From an uncultured Bdellovibrionales bacterium (lineage in GTDB: Bacteria; Patescibacteriota; Minisyncoccia; Moranbacterales; UBA1568), in assembly GCA_964500505.1 (NCBI GenBank), contig CAZCNN010000001.1, forward strand, positions 131,826 to 195,825: 64,000 nt of DNA. Reading direction: 5' to 3'. The notes beneath the pieces are model-generated. The model was not told the origin of the DNA. It was given only the letters and a program-made list of their open reading frames with translations, and did no database searches. Position 1 is the first letter of the stretch. Each line of letters opens with the position of its first letter. This document shows, one piece after another, positions 17,458-59,526 of the stretch. A program made the translations under genes and the position numbers.

Positions 17458-17488
17458 GGTACCACACCAATCATATTGGTGTGGTACC
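17458..17488. repeat. Perfect palindrome GGTACCACACCAAT-CAT-ATTGGTGTGGTACC in the rplI upstream region, plus a half-site TTGGTGTGGTACC at 17508-17520
   Basis: 14-bp arms with a 3-nt centre; the same core recurs at 23845-23901. Confidence 0.6.
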
Positions 17489-17541
17489 AAGGTTCCTACT
17501 CAACAGTTTGGTGTGGTACCAGGGCATCAACGTCTAGCGAA

Positions 17542-18603
17542 CTAGAGAATGAGCATACTATCCCCAAAAGAGTAGAACGCATAGCGCTCCTGGATAGCGA
17601 GGTTATAAAGGTCCATAATGTCCCGCTTAGCCCCCTTATGCCCGAGAAAGGCATCGACTAAGAGCATGAGTGATGTCTCGGGGAGATGAAAGTTGGTCAT
17701 GAGAGCATCTACGGCTTGGAAATGATAGGGCGGGAAGATAAAGATGTCGGTCGGACCACTCATGGGGCGCACCTGGCCACCCTCCATGGCCGACTCCAGG
17801 GTCCTGGTCACCGTTGTCCCCACTGCTACCACTTTCTCCCCCCGCTCATGGGCTGTATTGATAGCCTCAGCCGTTTCCACGGGAATGTGAGCATACTCAC
17901 AATGAAGTCGCTTGGTCTCAAAGTTTTCCGGTCGGAGCGGCGCAAAGGTTCCGAGGCCGACATTAAGCGTCAAACGAGCTGTTTCAATGTTTTTCTGCTG
18001 TAAAGACTCAATGACTCGCTCGGTAAAGTGAAGTGACGCGGTCGGGGCGGCGACCGATGCCCCAGATTCTGCAAAGACCGTCTGATAGCGCTCCCTGAGC
18101 TCCGTCTCAGGTGTACCAGCCCCCTCGAGATAGTGTGGGAGTGGCGTCTCACCAAACTGATCAAGAAGAGCGAGGAGACCCCCTTCAGAGTGAAGTTTCA
18201 CCGAAAAAATATTCTCGGCCTGATCGACCACTTCACAGTATTCACCATTGGGAAAATACAATTTCTGACCGAGAGTGACTTTGCGATCCACGAGGACCGG
18301 GATACGCTCTTCATCCTCAATCTGATTGGCGAGTACAAACACCTCAATCTTACCCCCGGTCTCTTTCGTGAGCCACAGGCGCGCCGGAAGTACCCGGGTG
18401 TCGTTCAAGACCACCAGTGACTGGACCGGAAGATACTTGGCCAGGTTGGCAAAAGTACCCATCGACACAATGTCTGTCTTGGTGTCATACACAAACAACC
18501 GGGCGCTATCACGGGGTTCTAGACCTTTGGTCCTCACAAGTTCCGCCGGTAAATCATAGCGATACCTGGCCAAGTCGGAAAAATGCATCATCTCAATCAA
18601 CAA
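17542..18603 (-). CDS. queA: S-adenosylmethionine:tRNA ribosyltransferase-isomerase
   Basis: TPLPHYL, GTTVTRTLES, HLPETSLMLLV and FYSFGDSMLI motifs. Confidence 0.9.
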   Translation of the reverse strand: MLIEMMHFSDLARYRYDLPAELVRTKGLEPRDSARLFVYDTKTDIVSMGTFANLAKYLPVQSLVVLNDTRVLPARLWLTKETGGKIEVFVLANQIEDEERIPVLVDRKVTLGQKLYFPNGEYCEVVDQAENIFSVKLHSEGGLLALLDQFGETPLPHYLEGAGTPETELRERYQTVFAESGASVAAPTASLHFTERVIESLQQKNIETARLTLNVGLGTFAPLRPENFETKRLHCEYAHIPVETAEAINTAHERGEKVVAVGTTVTRTLESAMEGGQVRPMSGPTDIFIFPPYHFQAVDALMTNFHLPETSLMLLVDAFLGHKGAKRDIMDLYNLAIQERYAFYSFGDSMLIL

Positions 18604-18653: not shown

Positions 18654-19337
18654 TTAGAGATATTTCAGTGCAAAAAATCCGAGAATGAGGAGGGCAACAA
18701 AAACAATCGAGAGGGTATCTATATACTTTTCAATCGAATCCTTGTACCGCTGTCCTAGATGGTACATAAAGGTGGCCACTAGGAAAAACCGCATCCCGCG
18801 TCCAATAAGTGAGGCCAGGACAAACATGAGGAAGTTGATGTGGAACACGCCACCCGCAATCGTAATCAGCTTGTACGGGATCGGCGTAAAAGCCGCTGTA
18901 AATACCGTCAAAAAGGCATTGTCCTGGTAGCGCTGCCCTATATACACGAACTCCTCCTGCAATCCATAGGTGTTCACGATCCAGGCACCAATAGTACTGA
19001 ACAACAACAGTCCGATGACGTAACCGAACATACCCCCAAACACACTGGCAACTGTACAAATAGCTGCATGGCGGAGAAAGGAGACTGGTCTGGCCATGAC
19101 CATAGCGATGAGGAGCGGATCGGGCGGAATCGGAAAAAACGAACTTTCCACAAACGATACGCCGGCCAGAGCCTGTTCGGCCCGCTTGGTCTCAGCCCAG
19201 CCCACCACCCAACCATACATCTTGCGAATCATCTTTCGTGGCCAAGAAAAGAACGACAAAACAAGCAATATCGGTTTCGACGTGATAAACGCTTGAAAGA
19301 GCGGAGCATCACGCCATACCTGTAGAGTTTTGAACAT
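18654..19337 (-). CDS. DedA/YqaA-family membrane protein
   Basis: VESSFFPIPPDPLLIAM DedA signature; 5-6 TM helices. Confidence 0.7.
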   Translation of the reverse strand: MFKTLQVWRDAPLFQAFITSKPILLVLSFFSWPRKMIRKMYGWVVGWAETKRAEQALAGVSFVESSFFPIPPDPLLIAMVMARPVSFLRHAAICTVASVFGGMFGYVIGLLLFSTIGAWIVNTYGLQEEFVYIGQRYQDNAFLTVFTAAFTPIPYKLITIAGGVFHINFLMFVLASLIGRGMRFFLVATFMYHLGQRYKDSIEKYIDTLSIVFVALLILGFFALKYL

Positions 19338-19363
19338 ACCCAGTATCTTTAGCTTAAATAAAA

Positions 19364-19391
19364 TGGTGGACTTGGCGAGAATCCCTGCCCG
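19364..19391 (-). repeat. Degenerate duplicate of the tRNA-Cys 3' half (T-arm plus acceptor plus CCA)
   Basis: Minus strand reads GGGCAGGGATTCTCGCCAAGTCCACCA; the genuine tRNA 3' end reads GGCAGTTCGATTCTGCCTAGGTCCACCA. The copy does not fold into a full tRNA. Confidence 0.5.
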
Positions 19392-19445
19392 CCCTTGGAG
19401 GGGGCCGCCGCCCCTGCCTACGGCAGATTAATCTGCAATGCTCAC

Positions 19446-19553
19446 CCTGTTAGACGTATCGTTGGTGGACCTAGGCAGAATCGAACTGCCGTCTCCACAA
19501 TGCGAATGTGGCGTCGTACCACTAGACCATAGGCCCATAAAAGTCTAACAGGG
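19446..19553. repeat. 11-bp perfect inverted repeat (CCCTGTTAGAC ... GTCTAACAGGG) bracketing tRNA-Cys
   Basis: Arms at 19446-19456 and 19543-19553, 6-7 nt outside the mature tRNA ends; could pair as a leader-trailer processing stem. Confidence 0.5.
19463..19536 (-). tRNA. tRNA-Cys (anticodon GCA)
   Basis: Hand-folded cloverleaf: acceptor GGGCCTA/TAGGTCC, anticodon stem CCACA/TGTGG with loop TTCGCAT, T-loop TTCGATT, encoded CCA. Confidence 0.8.
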
Positions 19554-19666
19554 CGCGTGTAGCGTTGTACCCTTAGACCCCGCCCAAATCTCACTCAAGT
19601 GAGAAATGTGGCGGGACAGGTACAGGCCCGGACACTTGGGTAGGATAGCAAATAGCCGGAATGGTA

Positions 19667-20812
19667 TCAAGAAACCTGTGCCGTAAAGCCGAGTGGTGGC
19701 TTCTTGATTCGAGTGAGGAGATACCGTCTCAACTCTTTCCAATCAACTGTTGCTTCACTCAAAATATCTTCATGTAGCAAATGTATCCGCTCGCTCATAC
19801 CCAATGCATCGGCGAGAGCGTTTATTGTCCTTGTGTAGTTTAGTACATTGTAGAGTGCATAGACATCCTCTTCGCTCAGCGCTATTTGGCCGGTTATATA
19901 CGAGTACAGAGCCTGCTGACCCCGGAGGAGCATCCCTGTATCAGCACCCGGATAGGCAGCATCAATGAGGAGATGCTGCCACGACTCTCCCGACTTCATA
20001 AAGACGACGTTATTTTTTCCTGCGAGATCAAGAAATTCATACGTATTCTGACTGTACTCTATGGCGCGTGAAACAAAATCCGAGAGCGTTTCCCGAAATT
20101 GAGCGTCGGTCTCGGCGAGTACTATCACCTTTTCCAAGGACGGACTTTGAAGACAGCTAGAGAACGTCTTCCGATCAAAGTTTTTTGGTGATTCACGATT
20201 CAAAACCCACTGATCAGACCCTTGTGAATACAACTCAAGCTCACCTGGGTCATCACTCAACTTCTCTTCTGCATACGAACTCGTAAGATCCAACAGCGTT
20301 TCTCTTTCACGAAGATCAATTGCTTCCTGAATTCTCACAACTACGGGCAGAGTTACACTATCTTGACCTGAAGGAAGTAGGTCTTCATTATAAAGGTCTC
20401 GAAGAATATGGGCCGGGATAGGGAGATTCATAGTACTCACTCTCTGTCGTGCCATATGTTCACGCCCAAAAAACTCCTCTATGTCAGCCAATTTTGCCCG
20501 TGCCACGACCGCCTGGTGTCGCAACGTGCGTTCTGCAAGCACTCCCCCTGAACCCTCTCTACTCTCGACATCATGGAGCGTGGCTACTATCATATTGTGT
20601 GCCACTTTGAATACAATTTTCTCATGACCAGGTATTGTAAATACCAAATGCTCGCCACCCCGGCCTGCAAATTTTGGGTTATACTCACCATATAAGGCAT
20701 GATCATCTTTACCTAAATCAAATTTAGGTCGCGGAAGTTCGGCACTTCTCAGAGTCTTAGTCTTCTCTGGTTTAGTGCTCAGATGTGGTTGTTCGAGAAC
20801 TTCGAGTGACAT
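19667..20812 (-). CDS. Hypothetical protein, possibly an atypical protein-kinase-like/APH-like phosphotransferase
   Basis: Gly-rich GRGGEHLVF followed by KIVFKV (a VAIK-like Lys), then DLAGKNNVVF and LIDAAYPG resembling the HxDLxxxNxL and IDFE brace of APH/choline-kinase folds. Weak, by eye. Confidence 0.45.
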   Translation of the reverse strand: MSLEVLEQPHLSTKPEKTKTLRSAELPRPKFDLGKDDHALYGEYNPKFAGRGGEHLVFTIPGHEKIVFKVAHNMIVATLHDVESREGSGGVLAERTLRHQAVVARAKLADIEEFFGREHMARQRVSTMNLPIPAHILRDLYNEDLLPSGQDSVTLPVVVRIQEAIDLRERETLLDLTSSYAEEKLSDDPGELELYSQGSDQWVLNRESPKNFDRKTFSSCLQSPSLEKVIVLAETDAQFRETLSDFVSRAIEYSQNTYEFLDLAGKNNVVFMKSGESWQHLLIDAAYPGADTGMLLRGQQALYSYITGQIALSEEDVYALYNVLNYTRTINALADALGMSERIHLLHEDILSEATVDWKELRRYLLTRIKKPPLGFTAQVS

Positions 20813-23795: not shown

Positions 23796-23844
23796 ACAAG
23801 CCTTGTTACATGACCCTATTGTATCACGAAACAGCCTGTACTAT

Positions 23845-23901
23845 ACCACCACACCAACATACCCCACACACATCTGCTTGCATAAATGTTGGTGTGGTGG
23901 T
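23845..23901. repeat. 16-bp perfect inverted repeat ACCACCACACCAACAT ... ATGTTGGTGTGGTGGT (25-nt spacer) upstream of the membrane-protein gene; same core as the 17458-17488 palindrome
   Basis: Arms at 23845-23860 and 23886-23901; a second hairpin GGTGTCAgccatTGACACC follows. Confidence 0.6.
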
Positions 23902-24153
23902 AAATTCGAGGTGCGAGGATTCGGGGATTGCAGGGGCTTCGGTGTCAGCCATTGACACCACAATAAAGCAACGCCTTTCTTTTTCCCTCTCCCCTCCTCG
24001 CTCCCTTCTACAGCGCGAAGCTGTACCGATGAGGCCCTATGAACCCATAGGGCCTCAAAAAATTTCTTAGACACTTATGATCCGGTTGACATCTCCATCG
24101 AGAATCTCTGGTTTCATACCGAAAATCGTGATCCTCTTAGGCCCAGTGATATT

Positions 24154-57748: not shown

Positions 57749-57824
57749 GGGTGCGTAGCTCAGTCGGTAGAGCAGTGGCCTTTTAAGCCAACGGTCGAGG
57801 GTTCGATTCCCCCCGCACCCACCA
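57749..57824 (+). tRNA. tRNA-Lys (anticodon UUU)
   Basis: Hand-folded: acceptor GGGTGCG/CGCACCC, D-loop AGTCGGTA, anticodon loop CTTTTAA, T-loop TTCGATT, encoded CCA. Confidence 0.8.
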
Positions 57825-57829
57825 GACGA

Positions 57830-57857
57830 AAAGTCCCCGTAAGGGGATTTTTGTTTT
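57830..57857 (+). terminator. Rho-independent terminator after tRNA-Lys
   Basis: TCCCC-GTAA-GGGGA followed by TTTTTGTTTT. Confidence 0.6.
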
Positions 57858-57911
57858 GGGGTAGGAGGAAGCCAACTGCTTGGCTTACGAGAGGGATGAG
57901 AAAGGCGGAGT

Positions 57912-57962
57912 GATATTTCGCGAGCACGCGAAACCACGAGCCGGGGTCGCGGAAATATGGCC
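57912..57962. repeat. Divergent copy of the CGCG/AAATAT repeat family seen flanking the PaaX-like gene (ATATTTCGCGagcaCGCGAAA ... GGTCGCGGAAATATGGCC)
   Basis: Compare GGTCGCGAATATACGAGCC at 48808-48826; lies inside the tRNA-Lys duplication scar. Confidence 0.4.
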
Positions 57963-57989
57963 ACGTCGGTGGACAGATTATCTGTGACC

Positions 57990-58009
57990 GATTCCCCCCG
58001 CACCCACCA
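57990..58009 (+). repeat. Exact 20-bp duplicate of the tRNA-Lys 3' end (GATTCCCCCCGCACCCACCA)
   Basis: Identical to 57805-57824, 166 bp downstream: an att-like direct repeat. Confidence 0.75.
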
Positions 58010-58012
58010 ATC

Positions 58013-58045
58013 AAAAAAAAGACCCTATTTCAGGGTCTTTTTTCT
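58013..58045. terminator. Bidirectional terminator (serS on minus; tRNA-Lys region on plus)
   Basis: A8-GACCCT-ATTTC-AGGGTC-T8. Confidence 0.65.
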
Positions 58046-59383: not shown

Positions 59384-59434
59384 ATGGGTAGCTTATAACT
59401 TTTAGCTTCACTAGCCTATAGAATTCTAAAAATT

Positions 59435-59511
59435 TGGTGGTCGCACCTGGACTCGAACCAGGGACCTCTGCAATGTGAATGCAGCATTCTAACCAACTGA
59501 ACTATGCGACC
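59435..59511 (-). tRNA. tRNA-Val (anticodon CAC)
   Basis: Hand-folded: acceptor GGTCGCA/TGCGACC, anticodon stem CTGCA/TGCAG with loop TTCACAT, T-loop TTCGAGT, encoded CCA. Confidence 0.7.
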
Positions 59512-59526
59512 AAATTTTTGACACTC

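What the first reader, a model, noticed from the sequence alone, without database searches (positions are those of the whole stretch)
19364..19553. tRNA-Cys with a degenerate 3'-half duplicate and an 11-bp inverted repeat clamping the gene
Upstream of tRNA-Cys (as transcribed) lies GGGCAGGGATTCTCGCCAAGTCCACCA, a decayed copy of the tRNA's T-arm/acceptor/CCA (GGCAGTTCGATTCTGCCTAGGTCCACCA). This is an older att-like duplication than the tRNA-Lys one. Independently, CCCTGTTAGAC (19446-19456) and GTCTAACAGGG (19543-19553) form a perfect inverted repeat 6-7 nt outside both mature ends. If transcribed, it would form a leader-trailer helix typical of an endonucleolytic (RNase III-like) pre-tRNA processing stem.
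Basis: seen in the sequence. Interest (0 to 1): 0.5.

Follow-up and report, generated by a model that had tools for sequence, protein, structure and literature searches.

The report
tRNA-Ala nested in older tRNA wreck
The gene is a tRNA-Ala (not Cys) carried on a small imported DNA block that sits inside the broken remains of an older tRNA-Ala gene; the "decayed copy" is that older gene's displaced tail and the 11-bp inverted repeat marks the two ends of the block, so this looks like a recombination scar, not an RNA-processing signal.

Summary
The sequences are real, but several readings are wrong. The tRNA (19463-19536, minus strand) is tRNA-Ala(CGC) with G3:U70, not Cys. The 27-nt copy (19364-19390) lies downstream of it. 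Its last 20 nt match the 3' end of a different tRNA-Ala allele, the working gene in sister strains, at 19-20/20, against 16/20 for the present tRNA.

The 11/11 inverted repeat is at 19445-19455 / 19543-19553. Comparing five haplotypes of this Patescibacteria locus shows a conserved promoter followed by the 5' part of an old tRNA-Ala gene. A 116-nt block (19442-19557) comes next: CGCG, arm, TTTTAT, tRNA, ACGATAC, arm, TGA. Then come the old gene's anticodon 3' piece (GCATTGCAGA) and its 3' end.

The block's left junction is a sharp recombination boundary in other strains. The tRNA's 3' end (GTCCACCAA) is a second breakpoint in natural populations. Sister haplotypes carry a different tRNA-Ala insert at the same place, or a plain tRNA, with no flanking clamp.

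Best reading: scars of site-specific integration that broke the resident tRNA and supplied a replacement, as in tRNA-dependent lysogeny. The repeat is most simply the block's two ends. An RNase III-type processing stem is not supported. Moderate interest.

The parts
19642..19670 (-). Promoter-like site TTGATA-17-TATCCT with TG extension. It is the conserved promoter of the ancestral tRNA-Ala gene.
   Evidence: The same block (TTCTTGATAC..TTTGCTATCCTACC) directly precedes a plain tRNA-Ala in L092 and heads all other haplotypes.
19621..19629 (-). GGGCCTGTA, nt 1-9 of the old tRNA-Ala gene (T0, allele A0 type), at the same distance from the promoter as the intact tRNA in L092.
19579..19620 (-). 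Hairpin-forming insert between nt 9 and 10 of the old gene (CCTGTCCCGC...GGGCGGG). The base is shared with haplotype H1; the top differs.
   Evidence: (I1).
19558..19578 (-). U1: GTCTAAGGGTACAACGCTACA, the D arm and anticodon-stem 5' strand (nt 10-31) of the old tRNA-Ala gene, decayed.
   Evidence: (D1), alignment. Allelic versions occur in L095, L100 and L115.
19442..19557 (-). 116-nt imported block: CGCG + arm + TTTTAT + tRNA + ACGATAC + arm + TGA. Its left edge, 19557|19558, is a recombination boundary.
   Evidence: L115 has 2/957 mismatches right of the junction and 4/25 left of it; L100 has 2/102 right and 35/60 left. In L100 the same block is joined to the anticodon-stem 5' strand of a different tRNA-Ala allele, A1.
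19543..19553 (-). Inverted-repeat arm CCCTGTTAGAC, upstream as transcribed, 6 nt before the tRNA 5' end.
19463..19536 (-). tRNA-Ala(CGC), allele A2, with CCA encoded, G3:U70 and all stems intact. It is 55/71 identical to A0 and 54/71 to A1, with compensatory stem changes.
19462..19470 (-). GTCCACCAA: the tRNA 3' terminus plus 1 nt. It is a recombination breakpoint. Upstream of it, contigs L001/L002 carry different DNA, and contigs L086/L087 stop exactly at 19462.
19445..19455 (-). Inverted-repeat arm GTCTAACAGGG, downstream as transcribed, 7 nt after the CCA.
19432..19441 (-). GCATTGCAGA, an exact 10-mer of nt 35-44 of alleles A0/A1 (anticodon-loop 3' part and stem 3' strand). This is where the interrupted old tRNA resumes.
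   Evidence: My estimate of the chance of such a 10-mer here is about 0.005.
19391..19431 (-). Older spacer shared by haplotypes H1 and H2 (ATTAAT, CTGCCGTAGGCAG, GGGGCGGCGGCCCC hairpin).
   Evidence: Alignment.
19364..19390 (-). 3' relic of the old tRNA-Ala gene. The last 20 nt, GATTCTCGCCAAGTCCACCA, match A0 at 19/20. It is followed 26 nt later by the ATG of the VTT/DedA gene.

Best explanation
The locus is a layered scar of site-specific recombination into a tRNA-Ala(CGC) gene of a Patescibacteria (CPR) bacterium.

An older gene, T0 (allele A0 type), still supplies the promoter. Its 5' part (19629->19558) is interrupted by a hairpin insert.

A 116-nt foreign block (19557->19442) sits in the position of its anticodon loop. 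The block carries a complete, diverged tRNA-Ala(CGC), allele A2, which is now the functional gene. The two 11-bp arms lie 4 and 3 nt inside the block's two edges. They are therefore terminal inverted repeats of the imported DNA.

The most likely history (inferred) is that an integrative element recombined with the anticodon-loop region through a very short common core. It failed to rebuild the host tRNA and carried its own cognate tRNA, as in tRNA-dependent lysogeny. Everything except the now-needed tRNA and the element's two ends was later deleted.

The arms would then be the element-side recombinase half-sites, which are inverted repeats by design. This last step is the weakest (about 0.3).

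Independently, the 3' end of A2 (GTCCACCAA) is still a live breakpoint in present-day populations. The A2 tRNA is presumably transcribed from the old promoter with a leader of roughly 100 nt and cut out by RNase P and 3' processing. The arms can pair in that precursor, but nothing indicates that this is required.
For: SHOWN:
- tRNA identity.
- In L092 the same promoter block is directly followed by a plain tRNA-Ala, A0. In the window the same promoter is followed by A0 nt 1-9, then an insert, then a D/anticodon 5' fragment.
- The relic's last 20 nt match A0 at 19-20/20 and A2 at 16-17/20.
- The block CGCGCCCTGTTAGAC-YTTTAT-A2 is joined at the identical point (..GCTRCA|CGCG) to three different 5' fragments: window U1, an L115 variant, and A1(1-31) in L100. 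Divergence changes sharply at the junction.
- Right of the block, the A0/A1 anticodon 3' part resumes (GCATTGCAGA).
- Haplotype H1 has a different insert with its own tRNA-Ala (A1) after nt 33 of the same old gene. It shares the sequence from CTGCCGTAGG to the relic.
- L001/L002 join other DNA exactly at GTCCACCA, and L086/L087 end at 19462.
- There is no clamp around A0, A1 or tRNA-Lys.
- A second mini-relic of the same kind lies at tRNA-Lys.

PRECEDENT: phages that integrate into a tRNA gene through an 8-17 bp core, do not rebuild it, and carry a cognate tRNA (PMC10865867). A 5' tRNA fragment lying upstream of a full tRNA after mobile-element integration is also described (PMC3293823).
Against: - No integrase or other element gene is present. 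The neighbours are ddl, NUDIX, a 381-aa protein with no Pfam hit, VTT/DedA and queA.
- No phage or viral contig with the block, the tRNA or the foreign junction was found.
- The junctions show neither a clean common core nor a target duplication. Three nt (TTC) of the old anticodon loop are missing.
- L100 could be an unequal homologous recombinant between haplotypes rather than an independent insertion.
- The 47 nt of 'foreign' DNA in L001/L002 resemble the VTT promoter of an 80% relative. That variant may therefore be a rearrangement rather than an integrated element.
- The H1 insert has no comparable terminal repeat.
- The left arm aligns with tRNA positions 36-47 and might simply be decayed tRNA sequence.
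Confidence: 0.6

Rival explanations
1. The repeat is a selected RNA element: a leader-trailer helix in the pre-tRNA. It would guide endonucleolytic processing (RNase III or Mini-III type), or insulate folding of the functional tRNA from the homologous pseudo-tRNA pieces in the same transcript.
For: The helix is perfect (11/11) and stable, at -18.6 kcal/mol. It appears in the MFE and centroid folds of the precursor, with z = -4.2 and z = -4.8. It is invariant in all 8 contigs that carry both or one arm, while 3 SNPs fall in adjacent non-arm positions. tRNA-Val in the window also has leader-trailer complementarity.
Against: There is no covariation, and invariance is uninformative at 0.2% divergence. 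The orthologous tRNA-Ala precursors A0 and A1, and tRNA-Lys, have no clamp. The tRNA-Val pairing is A/U-only, abuts the acceptor stem, and looks like the A/T tracts of a bidirectional terminator. In L001/L002 the downstream arm is separated from the tRNA. Eleven bp is below the roughly two helical turns typical of RNase III substrates (general knowledge). The arms coincide with DNA recombination boundaries.
Confidence: 0.12
2. No mobile element is involved. The locus is a decayed array of tRNA-Ala duplicates, reshaped by deletions and by unequal homologous recombination or gene conversion between strains. The 11-bp repeat would be a by-product, for example a small inverted duplication or chance.
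For: Strains are clearly mosaic. L100 can be explained as a crossover between A1 and U1 within ACGCTRCA. No integrase was found. The left arm aligns with tRNA nt 36-47.
Against: Spacings do not fit a tandem array: 51 nt for the 5' copy and 99 nt for the 3' copy. A2 is only 77% identical to A0/A1 while the flanks are 96-100% identical, which implies a foreign origin. Two different inserts occupy the same anticodon-loop position. The breakpoint lies exactly at the tRNA 3' end. A perfect 11-mer bracket has a prior of about 1e-4.
Confidence: 0.15
3. The 116-nt block is itself a complete miniature mobile cassette. It would have 11-bp terminal inverted repeats and a tRNA cargo, be mobilised in trans, and insert specifically into the anticodon loop of cognate tRNA-Ala(CGC) genes, replacing the gene it destroys.
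For: It has terminal inverted repeats 3-4 nt from both edges. The junction is identical in three different target alleles, with a sharp divergence step. In L100 it is nested in A1, which itself lies in an insert in T0. The interrupted target resumes on the right.
Against: Only one locus is known: there is no other copy in the window, and in the other fetched loci the arm occurs only in contigs of this same locus. There is no target-site duplication. No transposase or integrase candidate exists. The three contexts may descend from one insertion plus homologous recombination. The sister insert in H1 has no terminal inverted repeat.
Confidence: 0.12

Closest known systems
tRNA-dependent lysogeny (Guerrero-Bustamante & Hatfull 2024, PMC10865867)
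   Same: A resident tRNA gene is interrupted and not rebuilt. A complete tRNA of the same isoacceptor arrives with the inserted DNA and takes over. Shared cores are very short (8-17 bp in the paper; here at most a few nt at the anticodon loop, and 8-9 nt at GTCCACCAA).
   Different: Here only a 116-nt remnant is left, with no integrase, no prophage and no experimental proof. The host is a Patescibacteria MAG rather than an actinobacterium. The crossover lies at the anticodon loop, with the tRNA immediately next to the junction, and 11-bp inverted repeats bound the remnant.
Classical integration into the 3' part of tRNA genes, leaving a direct repeat of the tRNA 3' end (Campbell model; sublocation classes of Williams 2002, cited from memory)
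   Same: A displaced 3'-terminal tRNA fragment lies downstream of an intact gene. The tRNA 3' end acts as a breakpoint in population variants. A second example sits at tRNA-Lys in the same window.
   Different: The intact gene is not a hybrid of host 5' and element 3' parts. A 5' fragment of the old gene also survives upstream, which classical integration does not produce.
tRNA gene disruption by a mobile element in Caldiarchaeum subterraneum (Sugahara et al. 2012, PMC3293823)
   Same: Population heterogeneity at one tRNA locus. [quoted passage not shown]
   Different: That case is archaeal, with a 1.8-kb element encoding a recombinase still present and introns processed by the archaeal splicing machinery. 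Here the host is bacterial and only a remnant is left.
Leader-trailer processing stems of rRNA operons (RNase III / Mini-III)
   Same: Complementary sequences bracket a stable RNA and could pair in the precursor.
   Different: The helix is only 11 bp, sits 6-7 nt from the mature ends, brackets a single tRNA, and is not conserved at orthologous or other tRNAs. No cleavage data exist.
MITEs / small TIR-bounded non-autonomous transposons
   Same: A short element (116 nt) with perfect near-terminal inverted repeats.
   Different: No target-site duplication, a single locus, tRNA cargo, and arms that are 3-4 nt internal rather than terminal.

Membership tests
   The loop is U32 U33 C34 G35 C36 A37 U38, so the anticodon is CGC.
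tRNA-Ala | Cloverleaf, Ala anticodon, G3:U70 identity pair | tested here: met
   RF00005 at 62.6 bits. ARAGORN calls Ala(cgc). The acceptor pair 3-70 is G-T and all stems are intact.
att relic of a tRNA-targeting integrative element | Direct repeat of the tRNA 3' end downstream of the intact gene | tested here: met
   19364-19383 against 19463-19482 is 80% identical. The match to sister allele A0 is 19-20/20.
att relic of a tRNA-targeting integrative element | Integrase or other element genes between or next to the repeats | tested here: not met
   Only 72 nt lie between the tRNA and the relic. The neighbouring ORFs are ddl, NUDIX, a 381-aa protein without a Pfam hit, VTT and queA.
att relic of a tRNA-targeting integrative element | Occupied and empty variants in related strains, with the breakpoint inside the tRNA | tested here: inconclusive
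   L001/L002 join other DNA exactly at GTCCACCA, and L086/L087 end at 19462. However, the joined DNA resembles a relative's VTT promoter, and its far end was not recovered.
tRNA-dependent lysogeny | The host tRNA is not reconstituted at the junction | tested here: met
   The old gene is split after nt 31 and resumes at nt 35, with a decayed T arm. The outer copy cannot form a tRNA.
tRNA-dependent lysogeny | [quoted passage not shown] | tested here: met
   A2 is Ala(CGC), like A0 and A1.
tRNA-dependent lysogeny | A temperate phage with a tyrosine integrase performs the integration | not testable with these tools
   No element genes remain, and the viral and phage searches were empty.
RNase III-type processing stem | Leader-trailer duplex of about two helical turns | tested here: not met
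   The duplex is 11 bp perfect and does not extend; flanking positions match at 3/7 and 2/6 (read). MFE adds at most 2 pairs.
RNase III-type processing stem | Conserved, or covarying, around orthologous or other precursors | tested here: not met
   It is absent at A0 (L092), A1 (L095) and tRNA-Lys. No variation in the arms is available to test covariation.
RNase III-type processing stem | Mapped cleavage in the stem | not testable with these tools
   No transcript data are available.
MITE / TIR transposon | Terminal inverted repeats | tested here: met
   11/11 arms lie 4 and 3 nt from the block edges.
MITE / TIR transposon | Target-site duplication and multiple genomic copies | tested here: not met
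   No direct repeat occurs at the edges, and TTC of the target is missing. The arm sequence occurs only at this locus in the window, and among the fetched loci only in contigs of this locus.
Archaeal/eukaryal-type tRNA intron (bulge-helix-bulge) | A bulge-helix-bulge motif at exon-intron boundaries, with an outer tRNA restorable by splicing | tested here: not met
   Removing the block leaves a 4-nt loop without an anticodon. The outer T arm and D stem are decayed. The host is bacterial.

The most novel reading that the evidence does not exclude
The 116-nt block would be a self-contained 'selfish tRNA cassette': a tRNA-Ala(CGC) gene bounded by 11-bp inverted repeats. It would be moved in trans by a recombinase into the anticodon loop of resident cognate tRNA genes, destroying each target while supplying its replacement. 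Successive cassettes (A1, then A2) would therefore nest inside one another at a single promoter.
Probability: 0.12. Interest if true: 0.75.

Novelty: new member of a known kind. Interest (0 to 1): 0.35.

Why it matters
The locus shows that a tRNA gene in the small genomes of Patescibacteria can be replaced repeatedly by incoming alleles, and the older layers can still be read. If the replacement mechanism resembles tRNA-dependent lysogeny, that recently described phage strategy extends well beyond actinobacteriophages. It would also explain how a foreign tRNA allele becomes fixed. In practical terms, tRNA flanks in such genomes should be read as recombination scars before RNA-processing roles are proposed. 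The locus also causes assembly breaks in metagenomes.

Tried and rejected
- The genome-contig scan with QueA found only relatives of 41% identity or less, with no usable synteny. That scan is now spent.
- The metagenome-contig scan with the promoter + GGGCCTGTA pattern gave only 2 contigs, but one of them (L100) was the key nested haplotype.
- Viral scans for the block's left end, the A2 tRNA, the L002 foreign end, the L002 tRNA-Arg and the promoter-like 31-mer were all empty. BLAST of the block against 50,697 phage records gave no match.
- I predicted that a circular or attP form would read GTCTAACAGGG-spacer-CCCTGTTAGAC. One viral contig (L116, 8585-8619) has exactly these arms with a 13-nt loop. 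It is an intergenic hairpin inside a siphovirus neck/tail module, with no tRNA, no integrase in the 9 kb and no flank similarity. I estimate that 1-2 such hairpins are expected by chance in a collection of that size. I rejected it as evidence.
- The permissive Rfam scan of 19250-19750 found nothing except the tRNA.
- I considered an outer tRNA with an intron (group I or bulge-helix-bulge). I rejected it because splicing out the block cannot restore an anticodon loop and the outer T and D arms are decayed.
- I considered a simple tandem triplication. I rejected it because the spacings (51 and 99 nt) and the allele identities do not fit.
- The 9-bp outer repeat CCTGCCCGC/GCGGGCAGG in H1 is suggestive, but about 0.2 such repeats are expected by chance in 350 nt, and the window copy has an extra T. 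I left it open.

Full report
THE OBSERVATION

The region was read on both strands. ARAGORN and Rfam both find one tRNA on the minus strand at 19463-19536, 62.6 bits. Its anticodon loop is UUCGCAU, so the anticodon is CGC. It carries the G3:U70 alanine identity pair, and all four stems are intact. It is therefore tRNA-Ala(CGC), not tRNA-Cys.

Because the gene is on the minus strand, this lies downstream of the tRNA, not upstream. It does not extend beyond the 11 nt (read).

Perfect 11-mer inverted repeats with short spacers are about ten times commoner in this window than in shuffles, 27 seeds against 2.8. A bracket this close to both ends of a tRNA is still very unlikely by chance.

19548-19579 is a 75% copy of the 5' half of the tRNA (D1). 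Fragments of tRNA therefore lie on both sides of the intact gene.

CONTEXT AND ORGANISM

The neighbours on the same strand are NUDIX, ddl and a 381-aa protein without a Pfam hit. The tRNA region follows, then a VTT/DedA membrane protein, queA, rplI and pyrG. A T4SS-pilin-type gene lies nearby. VTT homologues are labelled Moraniibacteriota, Patescibacteria or Saccharibacteria. No species representative in GTDB is close: the best QueA match is 41%. The organism is a Patescibacteria (CPR) bacterium known only from metagenomes.

COMPARISON OF HAPLOTYPES

Exact-protein look-ups of the two flanking genes and their homologues recovered the same locus from many samples. One metagenome pattern scan added another. 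When all are oriented from promoter to VTT gene, five states appear.

- H0 (L092). A promoter-like block is directly followed by a plain tRNA-Ala(CGC), allele A0.
- H1 (L094-L097). The same promoter is followed by A0 nt 1-9, a hairpin insert and A0 nt 10-33. A T-rich spacer, a complete tRNA-Ala allele A1 and about 85 nt come next. The sequence CTGCCGTAGGCAG…GGGCAGGGATTCTCGCCAGGTCCACCA then runs into the VTT leader.
- H2 (the window, L003, L088, L099, L114). The same promoter (TTGATA-17-TATCCT) is followed by A0 nt 1-9 at 19629-19621. A hairpin insert and a decayed nt 10-31 fragment (U1, 19578-19558) follow. After them comes CGCG, arm, TTTTAT, tRNA A2, ACGATAC, arm, TGA. GCATTGCAGA follows, which is A0/A1 nt 35-44 exactly. 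The sequence then continues with the same older stretch as in H1, down to the 3' relic.
- H3 (L100). The left part is H1 up to A1 nt 31. It is then joined to CGCGCCCTGTTAGAC-CTTTAT-A2.
- H4 (L115). A third variant of the 5' fragment is joined at the same point to the same block.

The three alleles are all good tRNAs. A0 and A1 differ at 7 of 71 positions. A2 differs from both at 16-17 positions, with compensatory changes in the acceptor, anticodon and T stems.

WHAT THE 'DECAYED COPY' IS

Its last 20 nt match the 3' end of A0 at 19/20, and 20/20 for the relic in H1. They match A2 at only 16-17/20. It is therefore the displaced 3' end of the older resident gene, not a decayed duplicate of the present tRNA. 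The old gene's 5' end still sits at the conserved promoter. The present tRNA thus lies inside the remains of its predecessor.

WHAT THE INVERTED REPEAT IS

The two arms lie 4 and 3 nt inside the edges of the 116-nt segment 19557->19442. That segment separates nt 31 from nt 35 of the old gene.

The left edge is a real recombination boundary. L115 differs from the window at 2 of 957 positions to the right of it but at 4 of 25 to the left. L100 differs at 2 of 102 to the right and is non-homologous (35 of 60) to the left, where the partner is allele A1. The block therefore travels as a unit and is joined at the same nucleotide to three different tRNA-Ala 5' fragments.

H1 shows a different tRNA-bearing insert at the same position of the old gene. 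It has no comparable terminal repeat. The arm sequence occurs nowhere else in the window. Among the fetched loci it occurs only in contigs of this locus.

A SECOND BREAKPOINT

Contigs L001 and L002 come from two samples. L001 is 100% identical to the window over 3.8 kb. Both match the window only from 19470 downward, that is, GTCCACCA plus the downstream flank. Upstream of that point they carry different DNA, with a tRNA-Arg(TCT) in L002.

Contigs L086 and L087 come from the other side and stop exactly at 19462, directly after the tRNA. This is what an assembly-graph branch would produce. The 3' end of A2 is therefore a junction that is polymorphic among near-identical strains, as expected for an attachment site.

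One caveat applies. The 47 nt next to the junction in L002 are 36/47 identical to the promoter region upstream of the VTT gene in an 80% relative. I cannot tell whether the alternative partner is the end of an integrated element or a rearranged piece of chromosome.

MECHANISM

The following points are shown by the data:
- An old tRNA-Ala gene is interrupted in its anticodon region.
- A diverged cognate tRNA sits in the gap.
- The 11-bp arms bound the inserted block.
- The block and the tRNA 3' end are both recombination breakpoints.

The rest is inferred. An integrative element recombined with the anticodon-loop region through a very short core and did not rebuild the host gene. It supplied its own tRNA-Ala(CGC). 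In a small genome, everything except the now-needed tRNA and the element ends was then deleted.

This is the logic of tRNA-dependent lysogeny. In that system phages integrate through 8-17 bp cores, fail to reconstruct the tRNA and must carry a cognate tRNA (PMC10865867). A 5' tRNA fragment left upstream of a full gene by a mobile element has also been described in an archaeal population (PMC3293823).

On this reading the arms could be the element-side recombinase half-sites, which are inverted repeats by construction. This is the least secure step. The junctions show no clean common core, three nt of the old loop are missing, and no recombinase was found.

THE RNA-PROCESSING IDEA

The helix is stable, at -18.6 kcal/mol, and is predicted in precursor folds. 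If the old promoter drives transcription, both arms are in the transcript. Several observations count against a processing role:
- The orthologous tRNA-Ala precursors in H0 and H1, and tRNA-Lys, have no clamp.
- tRNA-Val has only A/U-tract complementarity abutting its ends.
- Strains exist in which the downstream arm is no longer next to the tRNA.
- There is no sequence variation in the arms from which covariation could be judged.
- Eleven bp is short for RNase III (general knowledge).

I give this rival about 0.12.

SEARCHES THAT LED NOWHERE

Viral-contig scans and a phage BLAST for the block, the tRNA and the foreign junction were empty.

A scan for the predicted joined form found one viral hairpin with the same 11-bp arms. 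It is an intergenic stem-loop in a tail-gene module with unrelated flanks. By my estimate it is within chance expectation, so I do not count it as evidence.

A permissive Rfam scan found nothing apart from the tRNA.

VERDICT

The att-type duplication is supported in corrected form. The processing-stem interpretation is not supported.

The locus is a multi-layer recombination scar at a tRNA-Ala gene, with replacement of the gene by an imported allele. This is a new example of known phenomena in a poorly studied phylum.

One open and more novel possibility remains: that the 116-nt block bounded by inverted repeats is itself a mobile tRNA cassette. I put this at about 0.12.

Noticed in passing
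window 57749-58045: tRNA-Lys(TTT) at 57749-57824 has a perfect 21-nt copy of its 3' end (CGATTCCCCCCGCACCCACCA) at 57989-58009, about 165 nt downstream. Each copy is followed by its own hairpin plus T-run. This is a second small att-type relic without element genes.
   Followed up: partly
window 59428-59519: tRNA-Val(CAC) on the minus strand is bracketed by A/T-only complementarity (AAAAATTT before, AAATTTTT after) directly abutting the mature ends. The fold predicts a leader-trailer helix (z = -2.2). It looks like the A- and T-tracts of a bidirectional terminator rather than the Ala-type clamp.
   Followed up: partly
window 17458-17520 and 23844-23902: Perfect palindromes share the core ACCACACCAA/TTGGTGTGGT in two different intergenic spacers (rplI-queA, and downstream of the 458-aa gene). 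This may be a REP-like repeat family.
   Followed up: no
window 19579-19620; L095 5616-5652: A hairpin is inserted exactly between nt 9 and 10 of the old tRNA-Ala 5' fragment. Its base (CCTG[T]CCCGC…GCGGG) is shared between haplotypes, but the top is completely different. In H1 the first 9 nt (CCTGCCCGC) are also perfectly complementary to GCGGGCAGG in the 3' relic, 270 nt away.
   Followed up: partly
L002 1-360; L001 1-34; L104 2350-2436: The DNA joined to GTCCACCA in L001/L002 contains a tRNA-Arg(TCT). It also contains a TGCTATAAT promoter-like stretch that is 36/47 identical to the VTT-upstream region of an 80% relative that has no tRNA there. This suggests either an outward-reading promoter at an element end or an ancestral VTT promoter.
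   Followed up: partly
window 17544-18470 versus L002/L004: Divergence between strains is strongly mosaic. There is no difference from 19470 down to 18471, then 77 mismatches clustered in queA. This indicates frequent homologous recombination within the population.
   Followed up: no
L094 5773-5875; L097 end; L085, L089 ends: Assemblies repeatedly break, or are scaffolded with N-runs, inside or at the 3' end of this tRNA-Ala gene. Allele A1 in H1 lacks an encoded CCA (…GTCCACAC).
   Followed up: no
L092 3624-3959; L094 5232-5489; L091 1365-1547: A small proline-rich ORF (85-111 aa) lies between the 381-aa gene homologue and the tRNA promoter in the H0 and H1 relatives. It is absent from the window haplotype.
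   Followed up: no
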